A stretch of DNA of 64,000 nt, from contig CP068257.2 of the NCBI GenBank assembly GCA_009914755.4, positions 30,368,001-30,432,000 on the forward strand, given 5' to 3'. Origin of the DNA: the human T2T-CHM13v2.0 reference genome, Homo sapiens. The notes beneath the pieces are model-generated. The model was not told where the DNA came from, did no database searches, and saw only the letters and a program-made list of their open reading frames with translations. Position numbers and translations under genes: made by a program. Every line of letters begins with the position of its first letter. Position 1 is the first letter of the stretch. Positions 57,346 to 60,578 of the stretch are shown here, piece after piece.

Positions 57346-57605
57346 TTAGGCCTATGAAAGCTTTCCTAAAACTCCTTCTGAGCTGCTAAAGTCTCAGGCT
57401 GCTAGTGACTCGGAGGTGCTCAAAAACTCTGCAGCAAAAAGCAAGTGTCATAATATTATTCTCTAGCCTGGGTTAATTATAGTGATTTTTCTCTATTCAA
57501 GGCAGCTAGAAAATCCTCTGTGGCATGCAAAGATCTAGGTTGCTGGGATCTGGGTGCATCTTGCATTTATTGTCTTCCCTCTAGCTTTGGTTTTCTCAGC
57601 CTCCA
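57346..57605 (+). repeat. copy A of a ~260-bp inverted low-copy duplication (partner at 60315-60578)
   Basis: TTAGGCCTATGAAAGCTTTCCTAAAACTCCTTCTGAGCTGCTAAAGTCTCAGGCTGCTAGTGACTCGGAGGTGCTCAAAAACTCTGCAGCAAAAAGCAAGTGTCATAATATTATTCTCTAGCCTGGGTTAATTATAGTGATTTTTCTCTATTCAAGGCAGCTAGAAAATCCTCTGTGGCATGCAAAGATCTAGGTTGCTGGGATCTGGGTGCATCTTGCATTTATTGTCTTCCCTCTAGCTTTGGTTTTC. Confidence 0.75.
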
Positions 57606-58230
57606 GGGAGAGGCCACTGTCTTTCTACCTTTAGGTTACCTCAGGCTAGGTTTGTACAGACACCTATCCATCTCACTGTAAGCCACTCTGACCTCATCCA
57701 CTGGCAGAGCTAGCAAATTCCAGAGCTTTAATAGGGGACTGATCAGCATAGGGTGCAGCAACGTATGTCCAAAGTGTCTTCCCCAACTTGTCCTTCTCAC
57801 CTGGAAATGGTTCCTTTTTATTTGTAAGAGCAAAGTTTTCAGACACCAAAACCATCAGCCAAGGCGTGGGGGGTACACATGGCAGAGAGTCTGGGGCCAG
57901 GAGACTTACTTACCTTCTGGCCTGGGCTCAGCATGAAAGTTCTCGATCTTAGCCTCCACCAATACAGACATTGACTTTCTGAGCCCCAGTTTACCCATAT
58001 AATTATTCAACCACAGGCTGAGGCTCCAGAGGGGAAGCAGGAACAGCCCAAACTCTAAAAAGGCTCGCCGTTTAGGACGGGAGGCAAACACTCACACAAG
58101 GGTTCGAAGGCATTTTAGGTGCTTCGACAGAAGTACATAGGGGTGACCATGAAAACGCAGTGGGGGAAAACTCAGTTCTCTCTGTCTGGGGAGACACACA
58201 AGACACAAGTGCAATTATGTTGAAAGGTGA

Positions 58231-58530
58231 GGCCAAGCGCAGTGGCTCACTCCTGTAATCCCAGCACTTTGGGAGGTTGAGGCAGGTGGATCATGAGGTC
58301 AGGAATTCGAGACCAGCCTGGCCAATATGGTGAAACCCTGTCTCTACTAGAAATACAAAAATTAGCCGGGCGTGGTGGCGCACCCCTGTAATCCCAGCTA
58401 CTTGGGAGTTTGAGGCAGAAGAATCGCTTGAACCCAGGAAGTGGAGGTTACAGTGAGCTGAGATCACTCCACTGCACTACAGCCTGGGCGACAAGAGCGA
58501 GACTCCACTCAAAAAAAAAAAAAAAAAGAA
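58231..58530 (+). mobile_element. Alu SINE, full length
   Basis: GGCCAAGCGCAGTGGCTCACTCCTGTAATCCCAGCACTTTGGGAGGTTGAGGCAGGTGGATCATGAGGTCAGGAATTCGAGACCAGCCTGGCCAATATGGTGAAACCCTGTCTCTACTAGAAATACAAAAATTAGCCGGGCGTGGTGGCGCACCCCTGTAATCC through GACTCCACTCAAAAAAAAAAAAAAAAAGAAAGA. Exact 10-bp TSD GAAAGGTGAG on both sides. Confidence 0.9.
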
Positions 58531-58922
58531 AGAAAGGTGAGAGGGCATTTACCCAGTGACAGGAAGGGGAGGACATTCTTGGAAGGGACGGATGAGCAAA
58601 ACCCAGAACTGTGAAGAGCCTGGCAGGCCTGGGAAACTGCAGGAGGCTTAGCATGGCTGGAGCAAGGGGCACAATAGGCAATGTGGGGAGGGAGGCGGGG
58701 CCAGGGGAGGGGCTTCGACACCACTCTTAGGGCAGAGGCTGTCACCCAGGGACGATTTCGCCATGCCTGAAGACGTCTTTGACTATCACTTCCAGGGAGT
58801 TGGAATGCTACTGGCATCTAATAGGTGAAGGTCAGGGATTCTGTTAAACGCACAGAACAGCCCCTACAACAAAGAATTATTCAGCCCCATATATCAATAG
58901 CGCCGAGGTTGAGAACCTTACT

Positions 58923-59275
58923 GTATTAGTCCGTTCTCACACTGCTACTAAAGACATACCCGAGACTGGGTAATTTATAAAGAAAAGAGATTTAATGGAC
59001 TCACAGTTCCACATGGCTGGGGAGGCCTCACAATCATGGCAGAAGATGAAGGAACAGCAAAGGGACTTCTTACATGGCAGTGGGCAGGAAAGCTTGTGCA
59101 GGGGAATTCTCATTTATAAAACCATCAGATCTTGTGAAACTTATTCACTTCTTCTATAACAGTAGGGGGGAACTGCCCCATCATTCAATTATCTTCACCT
59201 GGTCCCGCCCTTGACACACGAGGATTATTAAAATTTAAGGTGAGATTTGGGTGGGGACACAGCCAAACCATATCA
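58923..59275 (-). mobile_element. THE1-type MaLR solo LTR
   Basis: TGTATTAGTCCGTTCTCACACTGCTACTAAAGACATACCCGAGACTGGGTAATTTATAAAGAAAAGAGATTTAATGGACTCACAGTTCCACATGGCTGGGGAGGCCTCACAATCATGGCAGAAGATGAAGG..CTTGTGCAGGGGAATTCTCATTTATAAAACCATCAGATCTTGTGAAACTTATTCAC..TTAAGGTGAGATTTGGGTGGGGACACAGCCAAACCATATCA. TSD CTTAC / CTTAT. Confidence 0.8.
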
Positions 59276-59955
59276 CTTATTCTCAGGGTAATGGGGACTG
59301 CTGGGGGGTTTTAAGCTGGGGATTGGCGCTCCCAGCTTTTTTCTTAGGAAGATGACTGTAGTAGCACCACAGCACATAATCAGAGGGGAAAACCCTGGCA
59401 GAAGGAAGATCATTTCAGGCAGGAGCTGTTATGCCTTCAGGTAGGAGTTGCCCAACTGCGACCCATGGTCCAAATCTGGCTTGTCATCTGTTTTTGCAGG
59501 TCTACAAGCTAAGAGTGCATTTTACATTTTTTAGTGGTTGAACAAAATCAAAAGAAGAATAATGTGTCACGTAAAAATTATATAAAATTCAACTTTCAAT
59601 GTTCATACATAGTTTTATTGGAACTCAGCCACTCTTATTTATTTACACATTATTTAGAGCTGTTTTTGCCCTACAGTGATAGAATTGAGTAGTTGCAACA
59701 GAGACTGTATGGCCTGTAAAGCCTAAAATATTTACTATTTGGCCCTTTATAGAGGAAGTTGGTCAGCCCCTGACTTAAACCAAGGCAACAGAGGTGAAGA
59801 TGACAGAAAGATATAGGCCCAGGAGTGATGTAAGAGGAGTACCATTAATGGACTTGGCCAGTGATTGATTATGGGGTGAGGAAAGGAGATCATTTTCTAG
59901 CTTGGGAGCTTTGGTAAGAGAGAAAAAAGAGCCAGGTTTTAGGATTTAAAGACAG

Positions 59956-60255
59956 GTTGGCTAGGTGAAGTGGCTCATGCCTGTAGTCCCAGTAATTTGG
60001 GAGGCAAAGGCAAATAGATTGCTTGAGCCCAGGAGTTCGTGATCTGCCTGGGCAACATGGAGAGACCTGGTCTTTACAAAAAATACAAAAATTATCTGGG
60101 TGTGGTGGCATGTGCTTGTAGTCCCAGCTACTCAGGAGGCTGAGACAGGAGGATCACTTGAGCCCAGGAGGTTGAGGCTGCAGTGAGTTGTGATCGTGCC
60201 ATTGCACTTCTGCCCAGATGGCAGAGCAAGACCCTGTCTCAAAAAAATACAATAA
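59956..60255 (+). mobile_element. Alu SINE (older, diverged)
   Basis: GGTTGGCTAGGTGAAGTGGCTCATGCCTGTAGTCCCAGTAATTTGGGAGGCAAAGGCAAATAGATTGCTTGAGCCCAGGAGTTCGTGATCTGCCTGGGCAACATGGAGAGACCTGGTCTTTACAAAAAATACAAAAATTATCTGGGTGTGGTGGCATGTGCTTGTAGTCCCAGCTACTCAGGAGGCTGAG through GACCCTGTCTCAAAAAAATACAATAAAGAC. Confidence 0.85.
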
Positions 60256-60314
60256 AGACTTAGGTTTTGGACATGTTGGGTTTGAAGTAACTGTGAGATG
60301 ACTAGGCCAACCTA

Positions 60315-60578
60315 TAAAAGGAAAACCAAAGCTAGTGGGAAGACAATAAATGCAAGATGCTCCCAGATCCCAGCAACCTTAATCCTTGCATGCCATAGAG
60401 GATTTTCTAGCTGCCTTGAATAGAGAAAAATCACTATAATTAACCCAGGCTAGAGAATAATATTATGACACTTGCTTTTTGCAGCAGAGTTTTTGAGCAC
60501 CTCTGAGTCACCAGCAGCCTGGGACTTCAGTGGCTCAGAAGGAGTTTCAGAAAAGTATTCACAGGCCTAACCCATACA
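60315..60578 (-). repeat. copy B (reverse complement) of the ~260-bp inverted low-copy duplication
   Basis: The reverse complement of 60315-60578 reads TTAGGCCTGTGAATACTTTTCTGAAACTCCTTCTGAGCCACTGAAGTCCCAGGCTGCTGGTGACTCAGAGGTGCTCAAAAACTCTGCTGCAAAAAGCAAGTGTCATAATATTATTCTCTAGCCTGGGTTAATTATAGTGATTTTTCTCTATTCAAGGCAGCTAGAAAATCCTCTATGGCATGCAAGGATTAAGGTTGCTGGGATCTGGGAGCATCTTGCATTTATTGTCTTCCCACTAGCTTTGGTTTTC. This is about 93% identical to 57346-57605. Confidence 0.75.

What the first reader, a model, noticed from the sequence alone, without database searches (positions are those of the whole stretch)
57346..60578. Inverted ~260-bp low-copy duplication flanking a 2.7-kb segment
57346-57605 and the reverse complement of 60315-60578 are about 93% identical over about 260 bp (..CTTCTGAGCTGCTAAAGTCTCAGGCTGCTAGTGACTCGGAGGTGCTCAAAAACTCTGCAGCAAAAAGCAAGTGTCATAATATTATTCTCTAGCCTGGGTTAATTATAGTGATTTTTCTCTATTCAAGGCAGCTAGAAAATCCTC..). 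Weaker similarity may extend further on the 3' side. I do not recognise the sequence as a standard repeat family. It could be a local inverted duplication or two copies of a rare element such as a low-copy MER or MITE. Inverted repeats at this spacing can mediate inversion of the intervening segment, which carries a THE1 LTR and two Alus, or form long hairpins during replication.
Basis: seen in the sequence. Interest (0 to 1): 0.5.

Follow-up and report, generated by a model that had tools for sequence, protein, structure and literature searches.

The report
Old local inverted duplication scar
A 255-bp piece of ancestral, moderately conserved non-coding DNA was copied once, upside down, into a spot about 2 kb away in an early primate, which is an ordinary fixed example of a common class of small human structural mutation.

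Summary
Positions 57341-57595 and 60321-60575 are an ungapped 255-bp inverted repeat, 92.2% identical, 2725 bp apart, and these are the only two copies in the window.

Host-contaminant contigs from public assemblies turned out to be orthologues of this locus. Four non-primate mammal lineages lack the right arm at a clean empty site. One of them (L007) carries the left arm in place and is colinear with human across the whole interval. A monkey-like orthologue about 6% diverged already has the right arm.

So the left arm is ancestral. The right arm, plus a 9-nt filler, is a primate-lineage inverted copy of it. It has no target-site duplication, no poly-A tail, no terminal repeats and no target deletion.

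This excludes a MITE, MER or LTR family and a composite transposon. It matches the known "inverted duplication under 1 kb, inserted within 5 kb" class, which has been attributed to replication errors.

The human spacer keeps the ancestral orientation. At 255 bp, with a longest perfect block of 86 bp, the arms are shorter than any repeat known to drive inversions.

One loose end remains. An 86-bp core is identical in both human arms and in the monkey right arm, and it lies in a conserved block of the source. Interest is low.

The parts
57341..57595 (+). Left arm: the ancestral source segment.
   Evidence: It is present at the orthologous position in outgroup contig L007, within a colinear alignment of human 56622-58180. 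Identity to L007 is 76.9% in the arm against 66-68% in the flanks.
60321..60575 (-). Right arm: the derived inverted copy of the left arm, inserted in the primate lineage.
   Evidence: It is 92.2% identical to the reverse complement of the left arm. It is absent at the orthologous site in L005, L007, L009, L011, L012 and L014. It is present in the monkey-like contigs L001-L004.
60312..60320 (-). A 9-nt filler (CTTTTATAG on the minus strand) between the inner end of the copy and the target.
   Evidence: It is absent from the outgroup empty site and is not homologous to the sequence that follows the left arm. Near-matches to this 9-mer are common in the window (22 against about 16 expected), so its origin is undetermined.
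57434..57519 (+). The 86-bp core of the left arm, identical in human left, human right and monkey right.
   Evidence: Shown. It is 82.6% identical to outgroup L007. The scan statistic for a run this long gives p = 0.001, or p = 0.05 if the mutated outer third is set aside.
60397..60482 (-). The same 86-bp invariant core in the right arm.
   Evidence: Searches show no human-monkey difference between 60392 and 60511.
60576..60620 (-). Outer flank of the insertion site (...CCCCAGTCCTGTGT| on the minus strand).
   Evidence: It aligns base for base with the outgroups up to the junction.
60253..60311 (-). Inner flank of the insertion site (|GTTGGCCTAGTCATCTCACAG... on the minus strand).
   Evidence: In the outgroups it follows directly after ...TGTGT (GTTCAACCTAGATGTCTCACA). 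There is no duplicated or deleted target sequence.
57250..57550 (.). Moderately conserved non-coding block that contains most of the source arm.
   Evidence: In 60-bp windows it is 75-90% identical to L007 against about 66-68% in the surrounding sequence. 57280-57340 reaches 90%. Indels of 6, 26, 1 and 3 bp argue against a coding function.
58231..58530 (+). Alu in the spacer, a primate-specific later or independent insertion.
   Evidence: Rfam SRP-like hits. The region is not represented in the L007 alignment.
58921..59277 (+). LTR-like element in the spacer (THE1/MST-like by recollection).
   Evidence: It is a direct repeat of 61430-61805, and the outgroup alignments skip it.
59960..60252 (+). 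Second Alu in the spacer, 68 bp from the right arm.
   Evidence: Rfam SRP-like hits. It is absent from all outgroup contigs, whose alignment jumps to 59943.

Best explanation
This is the fixed scar of a single small inverted duplication. In a primate ancestor, a 255-bp stretch of ancestral single-copy non-coding DNA (the left arm) was copied. The copy was inserted in reverse orientation, with a 9-nt filler, into a site downstream. That site is about 1.75 kb away if the primate-specific Alus and LTR are discounted, and 2.7 kb away today. The event happened after the split from Laurasiatheria-like mammals and before the human / Old World monkey split.

The junctions show no target-site duplication, poly-A tail, target loss or clear microhomology. 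This points to a non-transposon route. The most likely route is a replication template switch to the opposite strand close behind the fork (FoSTeS/MMBIR type). Less likely is end-joining capture of a locally derived DNA or cDNA fragment.

Shown here: which copy came first, the empty site, the anatomy of the junctions, and the bracketing of the date. Inferred: the molecular route, and the conclusion that the repeat most probably has no function of its own today.
For: 1. The inverted repeat is real and there are only two copies in the window.

2. Contigs L005-L014 are colinear orthologues of window 56339-63752. They skip the primate-specific LTRs and Alus.

3. All four outgroup lineages read ...CCCCAGTC(C/G)TGT(G/A)T|G(T/C)(T/C)CAA(C/T)CTAGAT... 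at the site. Human has the 255-bp arm plus CTTTTATAG between these same bases. So there is no target-site duplication and no deletion.

4. L007 spans both sites. It carries the left arm in place, has no right arm, and has the same spacer orientation as human.

5. Contigs about 5.9% diverged from human (L001-L004) already carry the right arm at the same site. They share 15 of the 19 covered left/right differences with the human right arm.

6. The right arm shares with the human left arm the states that separate it from the outgroup, including the absence of a 26-bp segment. It therefore derives from the primate-lineage left copy and not from a dispersed family.

7. In the 1000 Genomes structural variation map, 54% of sequenced 'inversions' are inverted duplications. 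Nearly all of these are under 1 kb and inserted within 5 kb of the other copy. They are not typically linked to retrotransposition and are ascribed to replication errors (PMC4617611).

8. Seven of the eight changes assigned to the right-copy branch before the human-monkey split lie in the outer 93 bp (binomial p = 0.005). This would fit error-prone synthesis at one junction.
Against: - Copy number in the whole human genome could not be counted, because no human assembly or Dfam library was available.
- The monkey left arm was not recovered, so the timing rests on three sequences plus one outgroup.
- Neither junction shows the 2-5 bp microhomology typical of template switching. A blunt join plus a 9-nt filler looks as much like end joining.
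- The uneven spread of mismatches (14, 0 and 6 in the outer, core and inner parts) is not what a simple neutral scar predicts (scan p = 0.001). It needs an added cause: event-linked mutation, partial gene conversion, or constraint on the core.
Confidence: 0.85

Rival explanations
1. The arms are two independent copies of a rare interspersed element (a low-copy MER, MITE or solo LTR) that happened to land 2.7 kb apart in opposite orientation.
For: Both copies end at the same two positions, like a discrete unit. I could not count genomic copies.
Against: The left copy is ancestral syntenic sequence, 77% identical in a Laurasiatheria-like outgroup. The right copy is 92% identical to the left copy and shares its primate-lineage states. 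An independent copy of a family old enough to predate the outgroup split could not be this similar. There is no target-site duplication at the right copy and no TG...CA or terminal inverted repeat ends (by reading the sequence). There is no third copy in the window. The arm-containing end of P0001 had no other match among 1.84 billion protein representatives. Core patterns had no hits in viral or metagenome contigs, though that is weak evidence because those collections hold little primate DNA.
Confidence: 0.03
2. The whole 57341-60575 interval is one DNA transposon, and the arms are its long terminal inverted repeats.
For: The geometry fits: 255-bp inverted termini around a 2.7-kb body.
Against: The 'body' and both outer flanks are colinear ancestral sequence in the outgroups. 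The sequence on either side of the right arm is contiguous in them. No target-site duplication flanks the interval.
Confidence: 0.01
3. The outcome is the same (a local inverted copy) but the route differs. A free DNA fragment, or a cDNA made from a local transcript, was captured at a double-strand break by end joining. This would be a templated sequence insertion without L1 hallmarks, rather than a replication template switch.
For: The outer junction is blunt, the inner junction has a 9-nt untemplated-looking filler, and there is no microhomology. A conserved AATAAA lies about 10-15 bp upstream of the source segment, so the region may be transcribed.
Against: Being very close and inverted is the signature of the replication-linked inverted duplication class (PMC4617611). 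A captured fragment has no reason to land 2 kb from its source. After 30 My or more, short microhomologies may have mutated away.
Confidence: 0.2
4. The copy was kept because it works. Either the 86-bp core is a duplicated regulatory module (a second copy of part of a conserved non-coding element), or the two arms form a long RNA hairpin when co-transcribed.
For: The core is identical in human left, human right and monkey right. At the flank substitution rate, 7.7 or more changes are expected across the three lineages, giving P(0) = 5e-4 or less. The core lies in the best-conserved part of the source (82.6% against 66-68%). Human-monkey divergence is 3.0% in the arm against 5.9% in the flank. 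The arms would pair at about -430 kcal/mol.
Against: The core was picked after seeing the data. With the mutated outer third set aside, the run is only borderline (p = 0.05). The arm-versus-flank difference is not significant (Fisher p = 0.10). The core has no CpG, so it mutates more slowly. The outer third has 15% mismatches, which a hairpin under selection would not tolerate. There is no Rfam match and a single arm has no excess structure (z = 0.61). The 2.7-kb spacer exceeds the 1000 nt allowed in the published survey of hairpin-forming inverted duplicates (PMC5398296).
Confidence: 0.1
5. The repeat is an active substrate for non-allelic homologous recombination and flips the 2.7-kb spacer, either as a human polymorphism or between primates.
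For: Inverted repeats do drive recurrent inversions (PMC3961182; PMC6748972). The monkey contigs stop inside the arm, so the monkey orientation is unknown.
Against: The human orientation equals the ancestral orientation. The arms are 255 bp at 92% identity with a longest perfect block of 86 bp. The shortest inverted repeat among 24 NAHR inversions studied was 654 bp.
Confidence: 0.04

Closest known systems
Small inverted duplications ('inv-dup') of the 1000 Genomes structural variation map (Sudmant et al. 2015, PMC4617611)
   Same: The duplicated stretch is under 1 kb (255 bp). It is inserted in inverted orientation within 5 kb of the source (2.7 kb now, about 1.75 kb without primate-specific repeats). 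There are no retrotransposition hallmarks. It looks like a single mutational event.
   Different: Those are polymorphisms segregating in living humans. This one is fixed and old, being already present in a monkey about 6% diverged from human. Its junction shows a 9-nt filler and no detectable microhomology.
FoSTeS/MMBIR and short-range template-switch mutations (for example PMC7954356 for great apes)
   Same: A nearby sequence copied in reverse complement is the expected product of a switch to the opposite strand within a replication fork. A cluster of base changes near one junction fits error-prone synthesis.
   Different: Short-range template switches usually involve tens of bases and replace sequence in place. 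Here 255 bp were added about 2 kb away. The route is inferred and was not demonstrated.
Inverted repeats that mediate recurrent human inversions by NAHR (PMC3961182, PMC6748972)
   Same: Two inverted copies more than 90% identical flank a short unique segment.
   Different: The arms are 2.5 times shorter than the shortest repeat in that set (654 bp), and no orientation change is seen relative to the outgroup.
MITEs and non-autonomous DNA transposons, and solo LTRs, of the human genome
   Same: A discrete unit of about 250 bp with sharp ends, present more than once.
   Different: There is no target-site duplication and no terminal inverted repeats or TG...CA ends. One copy is ancestral syntenic DNA shared with other mammalian orders.
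Intergenic inverted duplicates proposed as hairpin-RNA genes (Chen et al. 2017, PMC5398296)
   Same: Non-repetitive inverted duplicate with arms that would pair stably if co-transcribed.
   Different: That survey allowed spacers of 0-1000 nt, and this spacer is 2725 nt. Expression is unknown.

Membership tests
Small local inverted duplication (inv-dup structural variant class) | Duplicated stretch shorter than 1 kb | tested here: met
   255 bp plus a 9-nt filler.
Small local inverted duplication (inv-dup structural variant class) | Copy inserted within 5 kb of the source, in inverted orientation | tested here: met
   The spacer is 2725 nt and the copy is inverted. The distance is about 1.75 kb in the outgroup L007.
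Small local inverted duplication (inv-dup structural variant class) | Derived from a single-copy ancestral state (empty site known) | tested here: met
   Empty site in L005, L007, L009, L011, L012 and L014. The left arm is present in L007.
Small local inverted duplication (inv-dup structural variant class) | Not produced by retrotransposition (no poly-A, no target-site duplication) | tested here: met
   Junction alignment and the arm ends.
Replicative template switch (FoSTeS/MMBIR) | Microhomology of a few bases at the junctions | tested here: inconclusive
   None is evident. There is at most a CCTG match offset by 3 bp at the outer junction. The junctions are 30 My old or more, so short matches may have decayed.
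Interspersed repeat family (MITE, MER, solo LTR) | Many dispersed copies in the genome | not testable with these tools
   No human assembly or Dfam library was available. Indirect evidence: two copies in 64 kb, no other match to the arm part of P0001, and no hits for core patterns.
Interspersed repeat family (MITE, MER, solo LTR) | Each copy is an insertion flanked by a target-site duplication | tested here: not met
   The left copy is ancestral. The right copy has no target-site duplication.
Interspersed repeat family (MITE, MER, solo LTR) | Terminal inverted repeats or TG...CA termini | tested here: not met
   The ends read ATGTCTTAGG... and ...CTTTGGTTTTC, with no terminal complementarity.
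L1-mediated retrocopy | Poly-A tail and a 7-20 bp target-site duplication | tested here: not met
Composite DNA transposon with long terminal inverted repeats | The whole interval is absent at the empty site in relatives | tested here: not met
   The spacer and both flanks are colinear in the outgroups. Only the right arm is missing.
NAHR-competent inverted repeat pair | Arms several hundred bp or longer at over 90% identity (654 bp to 24.2 kb in PMC6748972) | tested here: not met
   255 bp at 92.2%, with a longest perfect block of 86 bp.
NAHR-competent inverted repeat pair | Both orientations of the spacer observed | tested here: inconclusive
   Human equals the outgroup orientation. The monkey contigs end inside the arm. 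Human population data were not available.
Hairpin-RNA inverted duplicate (PMC5398296) | Spacer of 0-1000 nt and expression | tested here: not met
   The spacer is 2725 nt and the definition is. Expression is not testable here.

The most novel reading that the evidence does not exclude
The inverted copy was retained because it carries a working piece of a conserved non-coding element. The 86-bp core contains blocks such as TGTCATAATATTATTC and GGGTTAATTATAGT that are unchanged even in the outgroup. It has stayed identical in source and copy, and in human and monkey, for 30 My or more. The locus would then hold a primate-specific, inverted 'shadow' copy of a regulatory module, or an 86-bp perfect RNA stem.
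Probability: 0.1. Interest if true: 0.4.

Novelty: new member of a known kind. Interest (0 to 1): 0.15.

Why it matters
It matters little on its own. It is a clean, dated, fixed example of the commonest 'inversion-like' structural mutation in humans. Source, empty site and both junctions are resolved, so it shows that such events persist for tens of millions of years without destabilising the locus. It would become more interesting if the copied core proves to be a constrained regulatory piece, because that would be a simple route to duplicating an enhancer fragment close to its source. For the scan, the practical lessons are two. Sharp-ended, two-copy inverted repeats with a kilobase-scale spacer are usually this kind of scar and not a mobile element. 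And orthologous host-contaminant contigs in public assemblies can settle such cases.

Tried and rejected
- **Exact ORF look-up.** The human ORF 60527-60883(-) is not on record.
- **Concatenated left-region query.** A 1706-aa query built from all open stretches of the left region found nothing. It reached 8000 candidates, which may be a cap. The monkey left arm was therefore never recovered.
- **Six-frame arm query.** P0001 was used instead.
- **Core DNA patterns.** None matched in viral contigs or metagenome contigs. This says little, because those collections hold little primate DNA.
- **Rfam.** Nothing in the arms. A single arm has no excess fold.
- **L2 from memory.** I first read the right-arm flanks as an old L2 LINE and suspected a 15-17 bp target duplication. 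The real outgroup alignment then showed there is no target duplication. The idea is dropped and the L2 label remains untested.
- **Homologues of P0001.** I first took P0002-P0006 for paralogous repeat copies. They are orthologues.
- **Filler origin.** A near-match 60 bp upstream of the left arm is not significant.
- **Source species of the contigs.** No paper mentions the run accessions.
- **Full-length THE1.** The idea that the two THE1-like LTRs bound one full-length element was rejected, because the sequence between them is ancestral.
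Full report

Yes. The repeat finder reports one inverted pair in 56000-62000: 57341-57595 against 60321-60575, 255 nt, 92% complementary, 2725 nt apart. A sensitive blastn gives 92.16% over 255 nt with no gap and E = 2e-87. Searching an arm against the whole 64-kb window finds only these two copies.

Base by base there are 20 mismatches, 13 transitions and 7 transversions. The homology stops abruptly at both ends.

The mismatches are unevenly spread:
- 14 in the outer 93 bp
- none in an 86-bp core (57434-57519 = 60397-60482)
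- 6 in the inner 76 bp

The spacer contains two Alus, shown by SRP-like Rfam hits at 58232-58513 and 59960-60242. It also contains an LTR-like element at 58921-59276, which has a second direct copy at 61430-61805. The name THE1 is my recollection and was not tested.

**2. How related sequence was obtained**

No human or primate genome is searchable with these tools. I therefore used spurious ORFs as handles into public assemblies. The open frame across the outer junction of the right arm (60530-60898, minus strand) retrieved one protein, P0001, at 92% identity. P0001 sits on four roughly 1-kb Logan contigs, L001-L004.

An exhaustive search with P0001 found three weak relatives. A profile search built from their alignment then found five relatives in all, P0002-P0006. 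Their contigs are L005-L014.

**3. What the contigs show**

*The monkey-like contigs.* L001-L004 align to window 61459-60344 at about 94% identity. Divergence in the unique flank is 49/824 = 5.9%. From general knowledge that is the level of an Old World monkey, but the species is not known. These contigs carry the right arm at the same site. At 15 of the 19 covered left/right differences they agree with the human right arm. So the copy predates that split.

*The outgroup contigs.* L005-L014 are orthologues, not paralogous repeats. They align colinearly to the window's minus strand, in total from 63752 down to 56339, at 67-81% identity. They skip exactly the elements expected to be primate-specific:
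- 61424-61803 (LTR)
- 59960-60252 (Alu)
- 58181-59277 (Alu and LTR region)

Pairwise identities sort them into four lineages: L005/L007-L010, L012/L013, L014 and L011. L014 and L011 share a SINE that I recognise from memory as ruminant-type. None contains the right arm.

*The empty site.* On the minus strand the outgroups read ...CCCCAGTCGTGTGT|GTTCAACCTAGATGTCTCACA... (L005, L007, L009), with close variants in L014 and L011. In L012 a short stretch is missing at the junction itself, and it has no arm either. Human reads ...CCCCAGTCCTGTGT|[255-bp arm][CTTTTATAG]|GTTGGCCTAGTCATCTCACA.... The insertion is therefore 264 bp: the arm plus a 9-nt filler. There is no target-site duplication, no loss of target bases and no poly-A.

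*The contig that spans both sites.* L007 is 3.6 kb long. It has the empty right site. It also carries the left arm inside a continuous alignment of human 56622-58180, in the same orientation as human throughout.

Together these results fix the direction of the event. The left arm is ancestral and the right arm is its derived inverted copy. They also show that the human spacer has not been inverted relative to the ancestral arrangement.

**4. What it is not**

*Not a rare MITE, MER or LTR family.* That would require both copies to be insertions. The left copy is syntenic in another mammalian superorder at 77% identity. The right copy is 92% identical to the human left copy and shares its lineage-specific states, including the absence of a 26-bp segment present in the outgroup. 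It has no target-site duplication and no terminal inverted repeats or TG...CA ends.

*Not a composite transposon.* The spacer and flanks are ancestral colinear DNA.

*Not an L1-mediated retrocopy.* There is no poly-A and no target-site duplication.

*Not a known RNA family.* Rfam finds nothing in the arms, and a single arm has no unusual fold (z = 0.61).

**5. When it happened**

The event falls after the split from the outgroup mammals and before the human-monkey split. The K2P distance between the arms, worked by hand from the counts, is about 0.083. The human-monkey flank distance is about 0.062.

- If the arms evolve at the flank rate, the duplication is about 1.35 times as old as that split.
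- At the arm's own slower post-split rate (7/232 = 3.0%), it is about 2.7 times as old.

With a split of about 25-30 My (background knowledge), that is roughly 35-80 My. The estimate is loose because the monkey left arm is missing.

**6. How it most likely arose**

The anatomy matches a known and common class. In the 1000 Genomes structural variation map, 54% of sequenced "inversions" were inverted duplications. [quoted passage not shown] They were not typically associated with retrotransposition and were attributed to a mutational process potentially involving replication errors (PMC4617611).

I therefore favour a template switch to the opposite strand just behind a replication fork. The fork would have copied 57595 down to 57341 and then returned to the original template. 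This step is inferred.

One observation fits an error-prone copying step. With the outgroup as reference, 7 of the 8 changes assigned to the right-copy branch before the human-monkey split lie in the outer 93 bp (p = 0.005). Changes on the other branches are spread evenly.

Against the replicative route, I see no junctional microhomology, and one junction carries a 9-nt filler of undetermined origin. End-joining capture of a local DNA or cDNA fragment therefore remains a live alternative, at about 0.2.

**7. Does it do anything now?**

Probably not.

*Inversion.* The arms are 255 bp at 92% identity with an 86-bp longest perfect block. The inverted repeats behind 24 validated NAHR inversions range from 654 bp to 24.2 kb at over 90% identity (PMC6748972). 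The reference orientation is ancestral.

*Replication hairpins.* From general knowledge, a 2.7-kb spacer is far larger than the closely spaced repeats that are fragile. I did not test this.

*RNA pairing.* If both arms were co-transcribed they could pair (cofold -430 kcal/mol). There is no evidence of transcription. The published survey of hairpin-forming inverted duplicates allowed spacers only up to 1 kb (PMC5398296).

**8. The one loose end**

The 86-bp core is identical in human left, human right and monkey right. Under a uniform rate, a run that long among 23 variable sites has p = 0.001. If the mutated outer third is set aside, p = 0.05. At the flank rate, at least 7.7 changes would be expected across the three lineages.

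The source arm also lies in a moderately conserved block:
- 57280-57340 is 90% identical to the outgroup.
- The core is 82.6% identical.
- The flanks are 66-68% identical.

This hints that the copied core is constrained in both places. However, the core was chosen after seeing the data, it has no CpG, and the arm-versus-flank difference between human and monkey is not significant (p = 0.10). I put a functional reading at about 0.1.

**9. Verdict**

It is a fixed, primate-lineage, transposon-independent local inverted duplication of a 255-bp ancestral segment, and an ordinary member of a well-described mutation class. Novelty: new member of a known kind. Interest: 0.15.

Noticed in passing
window 60915-61043: A 60-bp unit is tandemly duplicated (2.2 copies, 95-98% identical). 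The monkey-like contigs and all outgroup contigs have a single copy. The duplication therefore arose on the human or ape lineage after the split from the monkey.
   Followed up: partly
window 58921-59276 and 61430-61805: Two LTR-like elements (THE1/MST-like by recollection) lie in direct orientation 2.5 kb apart, 74-90% identical in pieces. The sequence between them is ancestral and colinear in the outgroups, so they are two separate solo insertions and not one full-length element. The right one is already present in the monkey contigs.
   Followed up: partly
window 57250-57550: A conserved non-coding block, 75-90% identical to a Laurasiatheria-like outgroup against 66-68% nearby. It includes a fully conserved GGTTTCTGAAATAAAAACCAGATGC with an AATAAA just upstream of the source arm. 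Its function is unknown, and indels rule out a coding function.
   Followed up: partly
window 30593-32441: A large minisatellite with a 15-bp unit CTCCATCCAGGTCCA, about 123 copies, 81% matches. It produces long spurious ORFs on both strands.
   Followed up: no
window 24643-25100: An AT/GT-rich 8-10 bp microsatellite-like array (ATATATATGT)n, about 46 copies.
   Followed up: no
window 44994-45427: Degenerate 80- and 120-bp tandem units rich in CACA/TGTG motifs. They give long His/Thr/Cys-rich spurious ORFs.
   Followed up: no
window 58745-58915 vs 35511-35692; 59488-59779 vs 6621-6814: Old dispersed repeats inside the spacer match other places in the window at 70-77% identity. The first looks like a MER5A-type hAT MITE from memory. 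This was not tested.
   Followed up: no
L014 about 300-400 and L011 about 1150-1250: Two outgroup contigs share a SINE inserted about 20 bp from the empty site. I recognise it from memory as ruminant-type. It is independent of the primate event and useful only as a hint to the host species.
   Followed up: no
L002-L004 ends (human coordinate 60400): Three monkey contigs stop 3 bp before the inner edge of the 86-bp core. This is what a de Bruijn assembler would do if the monkey's left and right cores were identical too. It is weak indirect evidence that the monkey has the left arm.
   Followed up: no
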